From: a phage
Sequence record: PZ445442.1
DNA: 64,000 nucleotides
Reading direction: 5' to 3' (one strand)
Part shown: positions 17,458 to 62,897 of the stretch, piece by piece
How positions within the stretch are numbered: position 1 is the first letter of the stretch
Layout of the letters: the number at the start of each line of letters is the position of its first letter
Program-made: the position numbers and the translations under genes
Notes under the pieces: model-generated
The model's database searches: none
Seen by the model: only the letters and a program-made list of their open reading frames with translations
Told to the model about the DNA's origin: nothing

Positions 17458-17877
17458 ATGAACATTAAATCTAATAATCCGGCATATAGCTTTGATAACG
17501 CTTTTTGTCACGGTCCGGCGGCGAAAGGATTCGAAATCGATGGTAAACTAATTATTGTCAATGTTGACGGGGAAGAGGTTGCAGTATATCCGGTGGCAGA
17601 CGTTAAAAGCCGTCTACAATGCCGCATGGATGTTACCGCCTATCAGCTTGATCCGGTCCGCATAGTTGCCCTGGTCCTGGAAGAAGAAATTAAAGCCATG
17701 CACCATAGCAACAGATTTATTGGTGACGCGCAGGATAATATGAAAGTATGCCGCCATAAAGTTAATGAAGTGCTTAAAGAGTACGGCTATAAAGATCTTA
17801 TGATCAAACGCGAGGAAAAATTCCGCTACCGTAACGACCTGGCAAATCGGATTTTTGAAATATACGAATCATTATAA
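17458..17877 (+). CDS. hypothetical protein
   Basis: 139-aa ORF, RBS TAAGAGG; last gene of + block. Confidence 0.5.
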   Translation: MNIKSNNPAYSFDNAFCHGPAAKGFEIDGKLIIVNVDGEEVAVYPVADVKSRLQCRMDVTAYQLDPVRIVALVLEEEIKAMHHSNRFIGDAQDNMKVCRHKVNEVLKEYGYKDLMIKREEKFRYRNDLANRIFEIYESL

Positions 17878-17895
17878 TTTTTTAACTGAATTATC

Positions 17896-17922
17896 AAGGG
17901 GCTTAGGCCCCTTTCTTTTTGT
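17896..17922 (+). terminator. intrinsic terminator closing the + strand block (AAGGGGC-ttag-GCCCCTT + TCTTTTTGT)
   Basis: 7-bp perfect stem plus U-run 20 nt after stop. Confidence 0.85.
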
Positions 17923-18409
17923 CTGCTCTTCCCCCTACCATAAACGGCCCTACCTGGCAAGTGGAATAATTGACGAGCCATCAATCCCACACACTGTACA
18001 AACATACATATAAAATAACTATTGCATAATTTTTCATTGTGTGGTAGCAGGGCCATTTTTACACATTTTTCCTTCCAAAATTGCACGTAATGCAGCATTT
18101 GCACAAAATTTAACCTGATGCATATATTCAATAGCTTGTCAACAACTAAAAATCTTTATAAGTCATACACTTACATAACTACAAAAGCGTTTTCTACGTG
18201 AAAAATCGAGTATAACTATAGCCGCCAGATCTCAGAATTTACGTACGCTCGCCATTCTATAGCCTGCTAAGCATTTATTCCAACCATAGAATAACGGAAT
18301 AGTCAATACCTGCATAAAATAATTATTCGTGTAAACTGCATAACATAAATCGGCCCAGGTGTCAACATTTTTCGTAAACAGTCTGGAATTGTCACGTTAG
18401 GTTACCATA

Positions 18410-18760
18410 AGCAGAGAAATCTTTAGTCGTCTAATGTTTACTGTACGTTACTATATTAACTGAAATCATTAGATGACTAATAGAAAGATAAGAAATAATT
18501 AACAATACAATTATTTTATCTGTAACAATAAGGCAACTATGCAAACGAATGGCATGGCGCGACGGAGTCGCGACATAATATAAAAGCAGTAACCATCACC
18601 CCCGTGATAGTTTGTCTGCAAACTATTAATCAGATCATAGTTGCCTTGTATTTAGTTAATCATGACATAACAAGCAAGGCAACTATAGATCTTCTAATAG
18701 TTGCCCTGCTTTTATATTATGTCATAAATTATTAACATGCAAACGAATGGCATGGCTTAT
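18410..18760. repeat. non-coding repeat cluster (direct repeat ATGCAAACGAATGGCATGGC at 18538 and 18728; inverted GACATAATATAAAAGCAG/CTGCTTTTATATTATGTC; AAGGCAACTAT motifs in both orientations; palindrome ATAGTTTG-TCTG-CAAACTAT)
   Basis: Direct reading; no credible ORF. Confidence 0.55.
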
Positions 18761-19329
18761 AATTTTTGAGAAAATAGTCTATACGTGAACAGTAAGGCAT
18801 GCAATAGTAACAATTGTTATTGTATCCAGTGTGTTGAGTATGCCCAGTATGTCACCATTGTGTCCAGTATGTCAGACAAGTTTTCCTCCTCTTTGTCAAG
18901 TGCTGCATGAAAAATTTACAAACTGGTATGGTAGCATTTTTGCGGCCCTGTTTACATTCAGTAATGTATGTATAATCCTTGTTGTGTGGGCGTTTAGACG
19001 TCTAGACGGTTGGAAGTCTACAGGTCAATATCTAATCTATTGGCTGCTAACTATATCCCACACAAATAGTAAGAAATATGATTGTTATATGCGTAAACTG
19101 TAACTCATGTTATCAATCCCTGTATGTATCACCAGTGGTGCGCATAATGGGTATTATGTTAAATTGCCCGTAATGATAACTATTCTCACAATGATAGGTA
19201 TTCTCATTCACCCCAACAAAATAGGTTGCAAATGTTGTGCCACTGTGTGAACGGCCTCACCTATTAATTTGCCTCACTGCCTCGATATTTGAGAATTATT
19301 ATAAAAATGAGAAGTATTCCCATTCCGTC

Positions 19330-19630
19330 CGCCTGGCAGCACTCCAGTCGCTACGGCTCCTGACAGGGCAGCACTCCTGTAGGTCAGGTCAAAATCGGGG
19401 TAGAACTGGACCTGTTCAGATATTTCTGGCTGACTCTTCAGGTCTGTGTGGGAAAAGCCAACCTCTCCGGCGGGGCAGGGGAGGTAAATTAAAAAATTTA
19501 CGTGGTGTATGAAGAGCCCTTCAGGTAAGGCATGTATTATAGGATGAAACCCTCTTCAGGCATGATATTTGTGGGTGTGATATTTGCTGGAAAGCCAGAT
19601 ATGACGGGACTCCCGGCGGGGCAGGGGTAG
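19330..19630. repeat. short GC-rich direct repeats (GGCAGCACTCC x2; C(T)CCGGCGGGGCAGGGG at 19457 and 19609)
   Basis: Direct reading. Confidence 0.45.
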
Positions 19631-20323
19631 TACAGACGGGGAAATATGGGGATGTAGTTGGGGAAATTGATCAGGCAGGTGGGGTATAGGATATGTTACA
19701 AGTATGTTAAATATGGAGGTTGAATATCTGTAGGATTTGTGTGTAAAATCAAAGACTTAAGTGGTGTTGTGGTATTTTCTATAAATAATTCAAGTTTAAT
19801 AGGTAATATTTGCCTCTATCCACTTTGTGTGGTAAACAGATTCAGATGAGATTAGTTTACAAGTGTATACATAATATACAAATTAAAGATACAGGAAACC
19901 CCCCTCCCCCTTCGGCTACCATTCACCTTTTCCTCTGACTGGTACTTAAACACTTATTCAGACTCTTCAGGTTATCACCCATATATCATATGGCAGTGAC
20001 TGGTGTCCTCCGGCCCCTCTTTCGTCACCCGTCCGCTTCGCCATGCTAATGCCATAGCCAAAGGTTCGGTTGTTCACCCTGTTCACTCAGGTGTATCTCC
20101 ATACCCCTTCAAACCGAAGAGAACAGAAAACCCGAATTACTCGGTAAAAGAAAAGAGAAGAACTTAATTTTATCAGGATAGGCAAGAATGTCAAGGCATG
20201 ACTGCTCACTAAACAAGCAAACAGTCATGTGTGGGAGGTAAGTGATTGTGGTGGTGGGAAATTTAGTTGAAAGATGTGTTATAGGTGCGCTTCCAGCACT
20301 TTAGCCGGGCAGCTAATTGTGTG

Positions 20324-62027: not shown

Positions 62028-62086
62028 TGTAAACATGGTCTCCCACCTTTTCTGGCGGCTAAGGTGTAAAAGAAAGCCACCCAGTG

Positions 62087-62161
62087 CCCTGTTAGCTTAG
62101 TGGATAAAGCAGCGGCCTTCTAAGCCGTTGACACTGGTTCGAGTCCAGTACGGGGTGCCAA
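62087..62161 (+). tRNA. tRNA-Arg (anticodon UCU)
   Basis: Manual cloverleaf: acceptor GCCCTGT/ACGGGGT, D-arm GCTT/AAGC, anticodon loop CTTCTAA, T-arm ACTGG-TTCGAGT-CCAGT, CCA encoded. Confidence 0.8.
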
Positions 62162-62165
62162 ATTG

Positions 62166-62252
62166 GGGAGTTATCCCGTAGGGGTAGCGGTGTAGACTGT
62201 AAATCTATTGTCATTGCGACTCGGGTGGTTCGACTCCACCACTCCCCACCAA
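62166..62252 (+). tRNA. tRNA-Tyr (anticodon GUA), type II with long variable arm
   Basis: Acceptor GGGGAGT/ACTCCCC, anticodon stem GTAGA/TCTAT, loop CTGTAAA, variable arm hairpin, T-arm GGTGG-TTCGACT-CCACC, CCA encoded. Confidence 0.75.
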
Positions 62253-62366
62253 ATTTATATTTTTAAATGCATAAATCATACAGATAATGACATTGATATT
62301 TATCGTCGTTTATACTAGTCACTAACTGCTCGAAAATCAGTGTCATTATCAGTGTAATTTATAAAG

Positions 62367-62457
62367 GAGGGTAGGGAGCAATGGTGCTCAAGCGGTCTTG
62401 AAAACCGTCCCGTTGAGGATGACTCGATGATGGTTCGATTCCATTACTCTCCGCCAC
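62367..62457 (+). tRNA. tRNA-Ser (anticodon UGA), type II
   Basis: Acceptor GGAGGGT/ACTCTCC, anticodon stem GCGGT/ACCGT, loop CTTGAAA, long variable arm, T-arm GATGG-TTCGATT-CCATT, CCA encoded. Confidence 0.7.
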
Positions 62458-62554
62458 ATTGTTGACCTTGTAATTAAGCGAAAGCCGGAAGCAGAACCGG
62501 ATTATCAAATGTTACAGTCGTCATCGCCGACTAGCCACATGGTCAACATATTGC

Positions 62555-62653
62555 GCTAGGTAAGCCCTTTGGCAAGGGCGAGGATTTTTAATCCTGAAAA
62601 TAGACGAGGTAGTCGTTGAATACATAGGTGGTTCGATTCCATCACCTAGCACC
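62555..62653 (+). tRNA. atypical tRNA-like element (possible tRNA-Lys UUU with about 30-nt insertion in variable region; may be non-functional)
   Basis: Acceptor GCTAGGT/ACCTAGC 7/7, D-arm GCCC-TTTGGCAA-GGGC, T-arm GGTGG-TTCGATT-CCATC, but the anticodon arm is irregular and the element is about 97 nt. Confidence 0.4.
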
Positions 62654-62657
62654 TTTT

Positions 62658-62733
62658 GCTGATGTAGCACAATTGGCAGTGCAATTGATTTGTAATCAAT
62701 AGGTTGCAGGTTCAAGTCCTGCCATCAGCACCA
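62658..62733 (+). tRNA. tRNA-Thr (anticodon UGU)
   Basis: Acceptor GCTGATG/CATCAGC, D-arm GCAC/GTGC, anticodon stem ATTGA/TCAAT, loop TTTGTAA, T-arm GCAGG-TTCAAGT-CCTGC, CCA. Confidence 0.8.
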
Positions 62734-62734
62734 T

Positions 62735-62809
62735 GGCCCTGTAGCTGGAAGGTTCAAGCAAGCGACTCATAATCGCCAGACGGTGGTTCAATTCCACCCA
62801 GGGCCACCA
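62735..62809 (+). tRNA. tRNA-Met or tRNA-Ile2 (anticodon CAU)
   Basis: Acceptor GGCCCTG/CAGGGCC, anticodon loop CTCATAA, T-arm GGTGG-TTCAATT-CCACC, CCA. Confidence 0.75.
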
Positions 62810-62820
62810 AATAATAAATA

Positions 62821-62897
62821 CTCCGCGTAGCTCAGCTTGGTAGAGCGCCTGATTTGGGATCAGGAGGTCGAGTGTTCGAATCACTCCGTGGAGACCA
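62821..62897 (+). tRNA. tRNA-Pro (anticodon UGG)
   Basis: Acceptor CTCCGCG/CGTGGAG (C1-G72), D-arm GCTC/GAGC, anticodon stem CCTGA/TCAGG, loop TTTGGGA, T-arm GAGTG-TTCGAAT-CACTC, CCA. Confidence 0.8.

What the first reader, a model, noticed from the sequence alone, without database searches (positions are those of the whole stretch)
17880..20320. 2.4 kb non-coding convergence zone with nested direct and inverted repeats
Both transcription blocks terminate into this region. It contains a 14-bp inverted repeat (TTAGTCGTCTAATG / CATTAGATGACTAA, about 18413-18478), a direct repeat ATGCAAACGAATGGCATGGC (18538, 18728), an inverted pair GACATAATATAAAAGCAG / CTGCTTTTATATTATGTC, AAGGCAACTAT motifs in both orientations, and GC-rich repeats CCGGCGGGGCAGGGG (19457, 19609). 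Candidate functions are a replication origin, packaging site or small RNA locus.
Basis: seen in the sequence. Interest (0 to 1): 0.5.

Follow-up and report, generated by a model that had tools for sequence, protein, structure and literature searches.

The report
Phage genome ends carrying a dif site
The 2.4 kb gene-free zone is where the two physical ends of this E. coli phage's chromosome are joined in the database record, and the 459-bp repeat found at both ends contains a near-copy of dif, the host site where XerC/XerD untangle chromosomes, which suggests the phage borrows that host enzyme to close its DNA into a circle.

Summary
The window is Escherichia phage EmilHeitz (Bas49, Vequintavirus, rV5-like). 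Positions 17878-20323 have no ORF conserved in relatives, both flanking gene blocks run into the zone, and the listed repeats exist, with small coordinate errors.

The zone is the concatemer junction of a genome with direct terminal repeats (DTR). By homology to the exact 459-bp terminal repeats of Gotham and EdH4, and to the record ends of about ten other vequintaviruses, the DTR is 18875-19333. About 1 kb of non-coding DNA lies on each side. Both boundaries abut hypervariable short-repeat stretches. The terminal sequences (RACA...TGTCAAG at the left, GTCCGYC at the right) match those of Hena1 and KPP-1, whose DTRs were determined independently.

New here: mid-DTR (19137-19164) lies GGTGCGCATAA-TGGGTA-TTATGTTAAAT. 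Both 11-bp arms are identical to E. coli dif, and the central 6 bp differ. Six Vequintavirinae genera carry such a site in the same place. The XerD arm never varies, and the centre varies but never equals the host's.

Best reading: host XerCD recombines the two repeats to circularise or monomerise the genome, as Cre-lox does for P1. This step is inferred, not shown. The origin and small-RNA readings found no support. I found no prior report of the site.

The parts
17896..17913 (+). Intrinsic terminator (AAGGGGCTTAGGCCCCTT followed by a T-run) that ends the + strand gene block
   Evidence: It is conserved in relatives and annotated as a terminator in Murica, EdH4 and Schickermooser.
17878..18874 (.). 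Non-coding unique DNA just inside the right chromosome end. It is AT-rich (35% GC) and 87-96% conserved.
18423..18480 (.). 14-nt inverted repeat (13 of 14) with a 30-nt spacer. The arms are invariant in 14 genomes while the spacer varies.
18523..18756 (.). Nested palindromic module. It holds four AAGGCAACTAT sites in alternating orientation and an 18-nt perfect inverted repeat (18572/18706), and is bracketed by 20-nt direct repeats (18539/18737).
   Evidence: The single-strand fold has z = -8.2, with equal scores on both strands. The module is present in 118 records at mostly 95% identity or more. It is deleted between the direct repeats in FV3.
18740..18874 (.). Hypervariable short-repeat stretch that abuts the left DTR boundary. 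In EmilHeitz it holds TG(C/T)CCAGTATGTCA twice; in rV5 and Murica it holds 15-16-bp GTAAAC arrays.
   Evidence: Identity falls to 0.57 with many indels. Tandem arrays are shown.
18875..19333 (.). Direct terminal repeat (459 bp), present once in this permuted record. Position 18875 is the left chromosome end and 19333 is the right chromosome end.
   Evidence: Gotham and EdH4 carry exact 459-bp repeats at both record ends that map here. Other records break at 18875 or 19333. Korf 2019 reports 458 bp. The terminal sequences are conserved in KPP-1 and Hena1.
19137..19164 (+). dif-like XerC/XerD core site: GGTGCGCATAA (XerC arm), TGGGTA (centre), TTATGTTAAAT (XerD arm)
   Evidence: Both arms match a real E. 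coli dif 22 of 22 (L032). The site is present in all 16 vequintaviruses checked and in five other genera.
19172..19322 (.). Copies of a 17-nt motif, AATGAKARSTATTCYCA, at 19172, 19190 and 19306 (+). A related copy lies at 19290 (-). The first copy starts 8 nt after the XerD arm.
   Evidence: The 11-mer TATTCTCATTC is also found inside the DTRs of Schickermooser and KPP-1.
19334..19400 (.). Hypervariable stretch that abuts the right DTR boundary. GGCAGCACTCC(A/T)GT occurs once or twice depending on the phage.
19467..19632 (+). Two GC-rich repeats, CCGGCGGGGCAGGGG. Each contains GGGCAGGG, which fits the KOPS consensus GGGNAGGG, and each points away from the dif-like site.
19600..19760 (-). The most G-rich, C-poor stretch of the 64-kb window. 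On the - strand RNA it is C-rich, G-poor and unstructured, so it is a candidate Rho-utilisation site for the - strand block.
   Evidence: The function is an inference only.
19880..20240 (.). Ultra-conserved block (97.5% identity or more in 118 records). It contains a strong sigma-70-like promoter on the - strand (-35 at 20194-20189, -10 at 20172-20167). Function unknown.
   Evidence: There is no significant RNA structure.
19334..20323 (.). Non-coding unique DNA just inside the left chromosome end

Best explanation
The zone is the junction of the two physical ends of a linear chromosome that has a 459-bp direct terminal repeat (18875-19333). The record was assembled as a circle and opened elsewhere, so the right-end non-coding kilobase, one repeat copy and the left-end non-coding kilobase appear as one internal gap.

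Terminase cuts concatemers at the two conserved boundaries: left end RACA...TGTCAAG, right end GTCCGYC. The repeat must then be duplicated, as in T7-type packaging.

In the middle of the repeat sits a site (19137-19164) with the exact XerC and XerD binding arms of the host dif and a private 6-bp centre. Every virion therefore carries two identical Xer sites in direct orientation.

I propose that host XerC/XerD synapse and recombine these two sites after injection. This would turn the linear DNA into a circle with one repeat, and would resolve multimers later. It would be the same job Cre-lox does for phage P1, but done with a host enzyme. The non-host centre would prevent exchange with the chromosomal dif.

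Shown: the termini (through relatives), the identity of the site to dif, its position, and its conservation pattern. Inferred: XerCD binding, recombination, and its purpose.

My confidence by step: about 0.9 that the zone is the terminal-repeat junction, about 0.75 that the dif-like site is a functional XerCD target, and about 0.4 that its job is circularisation or monomerisation. The overall figure given is for the whole statement.
For: Termini:
- Gotham and EdH4 have exact 459-bp repeats at both record ends, and these map to 18875-19333.
- HdK5, ECP2309, ECP2303, Pr121LW and EcoIv14a_Aya break at 18875. Four bov phages break at 19333.
- Korf 2019 reports terminal redundancies of 458 bp.
- BASEL genomes were assembled as circles and re-opened.
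- The only two poorly conserved stretches of the zone abut the two boundaries.
- KPP-1 (DTR from PhageTerm) and Hena1 (annotated DTR) share the terminal sequences at homologous positions. The flipped KPP-1 junction aligns with z = 5.6, against 0.7 unflipped.

Xer site:
- All 22 arm bases equal E. coli dif. This was checked against a real chromosomal dif that has an integrated filamentous prophage beside it.
- There is only one such site in the 64 kb.
- In seven phages of six genera the XerD arm is invariant, the XerC arm is RGTGCGYATAA, the centre varies and is never TGTATA, and the flanks are unalignable.
- The site always lies in the ORF-free convergence zone. Where the repeat is known, the site is mid-repeat: 263 of 459, 274 of 514 and 289 of 519.
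- In IMG/VR, 36 of 50 perfect-arm sites have the host centre and sit on small contigs. All contigs of 120 kb or more have a non-host centre.
Against: - EmilHeitz's own termini were not measured. Some papers call rV5-like genomes circularly permuted or headful-packaged.
- From established knowledge, recombination at dif-type cores normally needs FtsK at the closing septum, or accessory sequences as at cer and psi. I recognised no accessory sites, and no FtsK-gamma or XafT-like domain in 24 neighbouring small proteins.
- The KOPS-consensus motifs next to the XerD arm point away from the site. This would hinder FtsK activation rather than help it.
- T7-type DTR phages replicate without circularising, so a circle is not required by the packaging mode.
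- Schickermooser, a related DTR myovirus of another subfamily, has no such site within the tolerance of up to 5 arm mismatches.
Confidence: 0.5

Rival explanations
1. The dif-like site binds XerCD but is not used for recombination. It would act as a protein landmark or roadblock inside the terminal repeat, for example to pause the packaging motor before the terminal cut or to hold the two ends together. Alternatively it would act as a decoy: hundreds of phage copies would titrate XerCD and block host chromosome dimer resolution and division.
For: The arms are perfectly conserved while the centre is free to vary. The site sits mid-repeat, 169-262 bp from both cut sites, in three genera. The KOPS-like motifs are oriented so as to keep FtsK, the activator, away. 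From established knowledge, XerCD bound at dif stops a translocating FtsK.
Against: A pure binding site has no reason to avoid the host central sequence in every genus. That avoidance argues that strand exchange does occur and must be kept private. Nothing links terminase to XerCD.
Confidence: 0.2
2. The site lets the phage genome integrate into the host dif, or lets dif-exploiting elements integrate into the phage. This is the IMEX lifestyle of filamentous phages and gokushoviruses, and it would give a hidden carrier state.
For: All known phage dif-like sites are of this kind. The centre shares 4 of 6 bases with dif, 2 of 3 on each side.
Against: None of 5,426 complete E. coli genomes holds any part of the 2.4-kb terminal region beyond the 47-49-nt dif match itself. 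The subfamily is strictly virulent. No insertions are seen at the site in 16 genomes.
Confidence: 0.05
3. The zone is a replication origin. The AT-rich DNA and the module with four AAGGCAACTAT sites and nested palindromes would be iterons plus an unwinding element.
For: GC content is 35% at 18001-19000. The site cluster is significant. The module is 95% or more identical in 108 of 118 records and strongly palindromic. GC skew changes sign here.
Against: FV3 lacks the module and is a viable isolate. There are no good DnaA boxes. The skew change coincides with the switch in gene orientation and with the chromosome ends. No initiator gene lies nearby.
Confidence: 0.12
4. The zone encodes one or more small or long non-coding RNAs, for example a transcript from the strong - strand promoter at 20194-20167 that runs towards the repeat.
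For: The promoter matches 11 of 12 with an extended -10, and it lies inside a 360-bp block that is 97.5% or more identical in 118 records.
Against: No Rfam family matches even at E <= 5. The fold z-score is -0.83 for 20162-19880, and no strand-specific structure appears anywhere in the zone. No homologue exists outside the genus to test covariation.
Confidence: 0.15
5. The zone contains missed small protein genes. One example is the 47-aa ORF at 19107-19250, which one record annotates as a membrane protein.
For: The ORF is intact in 13 of 13 relatives, and codon position 2 changes least. A51.2 annotates a 'putative membrane protein' there.
Against: The ORF overlaps the dif-like site and the 17-nt motifs, and their conservation explains why it stays intact. 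Codon position 1 changes as often as position 3 (39 against 32), unlike the control genes. No Shine-Dalgarno sequence precedes it (read). All larger ORFs are broken in relatives.
Confidence: 0.05

Closest known systems
T7-type short direct terminal repeats and their concatemer junction
   Same: A fixed repeat of a few hundred bp lies at both chromosome ends. There is one copy per junction in replicating DNA. The cut positions are sequence-specific. Arrays of short repeats lie just outside the repeat on both sides (T7 SRL and SRR, from my own knowledge of Dunn and Studier 1983).
   Different: This is a 140-kb myovirus with no phage RNA polymerase. About 1 kb of gene-free DNA lies on each side. 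Genes at both ends are transcribed outward, towards the termini. The repeat carries a host recombination site, which T7 lacks.
E. coli dif and the XerC/XerD-FtsK chromosome dimer resolution system
   Same: The 28-bp layout is identical, and both 11-bp arms are identical.
   Different: The central 6 bp are TGGGTA, not TGTATA. The site lies on a virulent phage, as two direct copies per virion. The neighbouring KOPS-consensus motifs point away from the site instead of towards it.
Plasmid Xer sites cer (ColE1) and psi (pSC101)
   Same: These are private Xer sites on an extrachromosomal replicon, with a non-dif centre and a less conserved XerC arm. The T at arm position 7 of KPP-1, PVP-SE1 and phiTE matches cer. 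They are used to turn multimers into monomers.
   Different: cer and psi need about 180 bp of accessory sequence that binds PepA with ArgR or ArcA. I recognised none here. The phage arms are dif-like rather than plasmid-like.
Phage P1 Cre-loxP
   Same: Site-specific recombination occurs between two direct copies of a site that lie in the terminal redundancy of injected linear DNA. It gives a circle and later resolves dimers.
   Different: P1 encodes its own recombinase and packages by headful, so only some virions carry two lox sites. Here the recombinase would be the host's, and every virion carries two sites.
IMEX elements (CTXphi, TLCphi, VGJphi, XacF1, gokushovirus prophages)
   Same: These are phages that carry a dif-like site recognised by host XerCD.
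   Different: They are small temperate or chronic ssDNA phages that integrate at the host dif. Vequintaviruses are large virulent dsDNA phages, and no integrated copy was found in 5,426 E. coli genomes.

Membership tests
Direct-terminal-repeat (T7-type) genome ends | The same sequence is present at both ends of virion DNA | tested here: met
   This was tested on close relatives only. Exact 459-bp repeats lie at both record ends of Gotham and EdH4, which are 87-96% identical to the window here, and they map to 18875-19333. EmilHeitz's own record holds one copy, because it is a circular assembly that was re-opened.
Direct-terminal-repeat (T7-type) genome ends | Fixed, sequence-specific termini shared by independent isolates | tested here: met
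   Eleven or more records from different laboratories break at 18875 or 19333. The terminal sequences are conserved in KPP-1 and Hena1.
Direct-terminal-repeat (T7-type) genome ends | Two-fold read coverage over the repeat and sharp read starts at both boundaries in virion DNA | not testable with these tools
   No reads are available. This was reported for the relative KPP-1. One paper infers headful packaging for another rV5-like phage.
Xer recombination core site (dif/cer/psi class) | An 11-bp XerC arm, a 6-8-bp central region and an 11-bp XerD arm that match the consensus | tested here: met
   All 22 arm bases match E. coli dif, with a 6-bp centre.
Xer recombination core site (dif/cer/psi class) | Conservation pattern of a working site: XerD arm most conserved, XerC arm less conserved, centre free | tested here: met
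   Seven phages of six genera show this pattern.
Xer recombination core site (dif/cer/psi class) | Bound and recombined by XerC/XerD | not testable with these tools
   This needs gel-shift assays, in vitro recombination, or xerC/xerD hosts.
Xer recombination core site (dif/cer/psi class) | An activation route: FtsK directed by permissive KOPS, accessory PepA/ArgR/ArcA sequences, or a phage factor such as XafT | tested here: inconclusive
   The KOPS-consensus motifs are in the non-permissive orientation. No FtsK-gamma or XafT-like domain was found in 24 neighbouring proteins by Pfam. Accessory sites were not searched systematically.
IMEX (integrative element exploiting Xer) | Found integrated at the host dif | tested here: not met
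   No E. coli genome out of 5,426 holds the phage terminal region.
Replication origin with iterons | Repeated initiator sites next to an AT-rich unwinding element, and required for replication | tested here: inconclusive
   Repeated sites and AT-rich DNA are present. However, the module is deleted in FV3, and no DnaA boxes or initiator gene were found.
Structured non-coding RNA | A match to a known family, or strand-specific structure beyond shuffled controls | tested here: not met

The most novel reading that the evidence does not exclude
A whole subfamily of large virulent myoviruses (Vequintavirinae, six genera tested) has domesticated the host XerC/XerD recombinase. A private dif-like site in each terminal repeat would make XerCD circularise the injected chromosome. 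This would be a host-enzyme version of P1 Cre-lox, and the first Xer-exploiting strategy known in tailed lytic phages. The KOPS-like motifs set against the site may uncouple this reaction from FtsK and from cell division.
Probability: 0.35. Interest if true: 0.85.

Novelty: new variant of a known kind. Interest (0 to 1): 0.72.

Why it matters
rV5-like phages are common in phage-therapy and biocontrol collections. Their records are still deposited as 'circularly permuted', with a 2.4-kb blank. Placing the true ends fixes annotation and genome comparison, and it tells engineers where the cis-acting packaging signals are.

The dif-like site is the more important point. If host XerCD acts on it, this is a new way for a virulent tailed phage to convert linear DNA into a replicative form. 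It would also reveal a new host dependency. xerC and xerD are non-essential genes, so the idea is directly testable with existing knockout strains and BASEL phages. It would extend Xer exploitation beyond small integrating ssDNA phages.

The site also gives a simple sequence marker for locating the terminal repeat in unannotated Vequintavirinae genomes. The marker is RGTGCGYATAA-N6-TTATGTTAAAT in the gene-free convergence zone.

Tried and rejected
- Rfam, at gathering score and at E <= 5, found nothing in the zone.
- A sliding RNA-fold z-score scan on both strands flagged only the DNA palindrome. The ultra-conserved block folds no better than shuffles.
- In the coding test, the large ORFs are broken in relatives.
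- nhmmer profiles of the zone against the KPP-1 locus found nothing. Homology appeared only after flipping KPP-1 and aligning around the known repeat.
- An IMG/VR scan with an 18-mer from the ultra-conserved block gave 7 chance hits in high-GC contigs and one true relative.
- Motif scans for DnaA box, IHF, Chi and late-promoter sequences found nothing notable. GATC is depleted in the zone.
- The 'DNA translocase FtsK' label on the neighbouring 87-aa gene in navn, naswa and isim has no support. It shows no BLASTP similarity to E. coli FtsK-gamma, no PDB hit and no Pfam hit.
- Pfam on 24 flanking small proteins found no recombinase, XafT (DUF3653) or FtsK-gamma domain. PHROGs places the four nearest in families of unknown function.
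- The 17-nt repeat motif resembles the 7-1-7 Fur-box unit (11-13 of 14 across the copies examined). Its right half is invariant and non-palindromic, so I do not call it a Fur box.
- The KOPS reading of GGGCAGGG is uncertain. The motif also forms part of a GC hairpin that could be a terminator.
- Literature searches for Xer or dif together with Vequintavirinae, or with terminal repeats of lytic phages, found no prior report. The phi92 and PVP-SE1 papers are not held in the library.
Full report
**Identity of the window.** The region is 100% identical to Escherichia phage EmilHeitz (Bas49, MZ501062.1), a Vequintavirus (rV5-like myovirus) of the BASEL collection. About 120 related records match at 80-99% identity.

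**The observation.**
- No CDS is annotated between 17877 and 20324 in EmilHeitz or in most relatives.
- The rV5 paper already shows a 'non-coding' box and states that there are no ORFs at 104013-106618. It also notes that the expected bidirectional terminator was not found, and it calls the genome circularly permuted.
- The three largest ORFs in the gap are intact in only 0-1 of 13 relatives.

**What the zone is.**
- Several GenBank records of close relatives begin or end inside the zone, always at one of two positions.
- Gotham annotates a 459-bp repeat_region at both record ends. EdH4 has the same exact 459-bp repeat. Korf et al. report 'short terminal redundancies of 458 bp' for EdH4 and HdK5.
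- The repeat maps to window 18875-19333. HdK5, ECP2309, ECP2303, Pr121LW and EcoIv14a_Aya break at 18875. Four 'bov' phages start at 19333.
[quoted passage not shown] This is why EmilHeitz shows one repeat copy in the middle of its record.
- The zone therefore has three pieces. The first is the last ~1 kb of the right chromosome arm (17878-18874). The second is one copy of the direct terminal repeat. The third is the first ~1 kb of the left arm (19334-20323).

**Independent support from sequence variation.** I aligned 14 vequintaviruses. The zone is as conserved as, or more conserved than, the flanking genes (mostly 0.87-1.00 identity per 60 bp). There are exactly two exceptions, and both abut the repeat boundaries: 18740-18860 (0.57-0.78) and 19340-19400 (0.69). 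Both are full of indels and of short repeats with variable copy number. T7 has similar short-repeat arrays outside its terminal repeat (my own knowledge).

**The termini are conserved beyond the genus.**
- KPP-1 (Mydovirus) has a 514-bp DTR determined by PhageTerm. Hena1 (Henunavirus) has an annotated 519-bp DTR.
- Both share the end sequences with EmilHeitz at homologous positions. The left ends read GACAAG.../AACACA.../AACACT..., each with TGTCAAG at +19. The right ends read GTCCGCC|, GTCCGTC| and GTCCGTC|.
- The KPP-1 junction aligns colinearly with EmilHeitz only when flipped (z = 5.6 against 0.7).
- Schickermooser (Phapecoctavirus) has an 83%-identical homologue of the last + strand gene (17458-17877). 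That gene is followed, as in EmilHeitz, by a terminator, about 0.9 kb of non-coding DNA and a 329-bp repeat.

**The dif-like site.**
- A search of the zone against 5,426 E. coli genomes gave only a 47-49-nt match. The match is the chromosomal dif site, here next to an integrated filamentous prophage.
- Window 19137-19164 reads GGTGCGCATAA TGGGTA TTATGTTAAAT. E. coli dif reads GGTGCGCATAA TGTATA TTATGTTAAAT. Both 11-bp arms are identical, and the centre differs at two positions.
- This is the only such site in the 64 kb. It occurs with no arm mismatch in all 16 vequintaviruses checked; rV5 has TAGGTA as its centre.
- A short-query search found the core in Klebsiella, Cronobacter, Salmonella, Pectobacterium, Erwinia, Enterobacter and other phages of 120-150 kb.
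- I examined one representative per genus:
  - KPP-1: AGTGCGTATAA CGTGTT TTATGTTAAAT
  - Hena1: GGTGCGCATAA GGTGTA TTATGTTAAAT
  - PVP-SE1: GGTGCGTATAA CGTGTA TTATGTTAAAT
  - phiTE: AGTGCGTATAA GGTGTA TTATGTTAAAT
  - Av-05: GGTGCGCATAA CGTGTA TTATGTTAAAT
- The XerD arm never changes. The XerC arm varies at two positions. The centre varies freely but never equals the host's. The flanks cannot be aligned. This is the pattern expected of a working Xer core, not of a relic.
- In each genome the site lies in the middle of a 1.8-2.3-kb ORF-poor zone between converging blocks. Where the repeat is known, the site is mid-repeat: 263 of 459, 274 of 514 and 289 of 519.
- In IMG/VR, 36 of 50 perfect-arm sites have the host centre and sit on small contigs (prophage or integrating-element context). 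Every contig of 120 kb or more has a non-host centre, and several of those sites lie close to contig ends.

**Mechanism proposed.**
- Each virion DNA carries two identical Xer sites in direct orientation, 139.5 kb apart. Recombination between them gives a circle with one repeat plus a repeat-length linear by-product. This is the same product as homologous recombination between the repeats.
- That is what Cre-lox does for injected P1 DNA. Here the recombinase would be the constitutive host XerCD.
- A private centre would block productive exchange with the chromosomal dif. Consistent with that, no E. coli genome contains an integrated copy of the terminal region.
- The circle could then replicate, and rolling-circle or recombinational concatemers would be cut at the conserved boundaries with duplication of the repeat.
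- Weak points:
  - dif-type cores normally need FtsK, or accessory sequences (established knowledge).
  - I found no phage FtsK-gamma or XafT-like protein among the 24 nearest small genes.
  - The GGGNAGGG motifs lie 300-480 bp beyond the XerD arm in Vequintavirus, Mydovirus, Seunavirus and Avunavirus. All point away from the site, which is the non-permissive orientation for FtsK. They could be an anti-FtsK device, or merely GC hairpins.
- Binding-only roles (roadblock, end-synapsis, XerCD decoy) therefore remain live rivals.

**The rest of the zone.**
- The + block ends at a good intrinsic terminator (17896-17913).
- The - block has none. Its RNA would instead cross the most C-rich, G-poor, unstructured stretch of the window (19600-19760) and another just after the last gene (20200-20320). 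Both are Rho-utilisation-like; this is inference.
- The nested palindromic module (18523-18756) is present in 118 records, mostly at 95% identity or more. It folds with z = -8 as single-stranded DNA, equally on both strands. Yet it is cleanly deleted between its 20-nt direct repeats in FV3. It is therefore a constrained but dispensable protein-binding or cruciform element, not an essential origin.
- The 14-nt inverted repeat at 18423/18467 has invariant arms and a variable spacer.
- A 17-nt motif occurs three to four times in the right half of the repeat, starting 8 nt after the XerD arm. Its 11-mer core also occurs inside the repeats of Schickermooser and KPP-1.
- The 360-bp block 19880-20240 is 97.5% or more identical in 118 records, and it contains a near-consensus sigma-70 promoter pointing at the repeat. 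It has no RNA structure signal and no convincing ORF. Its function is open.

**Novelty.** The gene-free region has been noted since 2013, and short terminal repeats in the genus since 2019. The dif-like site in the repeat, its subfamily-wide conservation and the conserved terminal sequences are, as far as three full-text searches show, unreported. The library lacks most subscription journals, and the phi92 and PVP-SE1 papers could not be read.

**Verdict.** The zone contains an unexpected host-recombinase site that is directly testable with existing strains.

Noticed in passing
window 19472-19481 and 19618-19627; L007, L083, L085: GGGNAGGG, the consensus of the FtsK-orienting KOPS motif, lies 300-480 bp beyond the XerD arm of the dif-like site in four genera. 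It always points away from the site. In Vequintavirus, Seunavirus and Mydovirus it is embedded in a CCCTCC...GGAGGG-type hairpin, so it may be a terminator instead.
   Followed up: partly
window 19172-19322; L031 254-270; L007 4216-4232: A 17-nt motif, AATGATAAYTATTCTCA, recurs inside the terminal repeats of three genera from two subfamilies whose repeats are otherwise not similar. It resembles the 7-1-7 Fur-box unit, but its non-palindromic right half is invariant.
   Followed up: partly
window 19880-20240: This 360-bp non-coding block is 97.5-100% identical in 118 phage records, more conserved than most neighbouring genes. It holds a near-consensus sigma-70 promoter on the - strand. It has no structure signal, no convincing ORF, and no counterpart outside the genus.
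   Followed up: partly
window 19606-19685: Six GGGG runs lie within 68 bp. This is the densest cluster and the highest G/C ratio in the 64 kb, and it fits a G-quadruplex pattern on the + strand. Most relatives keep G3 or longer runs here.
   Followed up: partly
window 18559-18756 versus L009 (FV3): Phage FV3 has lost exactly the 198 bp between the two 20-nt direct repeats, which removes the conserved palindromic module. This is a natural deletion mutant that could be used for functional tests.
   Followed up: partly
window 18724 (insertion point); L002, L008, L011, L015, L017: navn, rV5, Murica, JEP1 and phiWec191 carry an extra ~60-bp insert with two GC hairpins (CACCCGAAGGGGTG and GGTGACCAAAGGTCACC), immediately after the 18-nt inverted repeat.
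   Followed up: no
window 17458-17877: The last + strand gene (139 aa, PHROG 12277, function unknown) is 83% identical at the DNA level in Phapecoctavirus phages of another subfamily. There it is again the last gene before the right terminal region. Records label it variously as 'DNA translocase' or 'contains Rel homology domain', and I found no support for either label.
   Followed up: partly
window 17878-20323: GATC sites are about three-fold depleted in the zone: 4 sites where about 14 are expected from the window's density.
   Followed up: no
window 62555-62653: Within the cluster of seven tRNA genes (62086-62897), ARAGORN calls one 99-nt tRNA-like gene with a four-base anticodon (atcc) and no assigned amino acid. 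Rfam scores it weakly as a tRNA (35.5 bits).
   Followed up: no
GenBank records MG0656xx: About 19 records named 'Campylobacter phage' with host C. jejuni are 90-95% identical to E. coli vequintaviruses over this region. They are unannotated, so they are probably mislabelled or contaminant assemblies.
   Followed up: no
L035 (155-kb contig) and L043 (262-kb contig), IMG/VR: Two other large viral contigs carry perfect-arm dif-like sites with non-host centres (GACATA and TGTGTA) within 0.3-1.3 kb of a contig end. The feature may therefore extend beyond Vequintavirinae.
   Followed up: no
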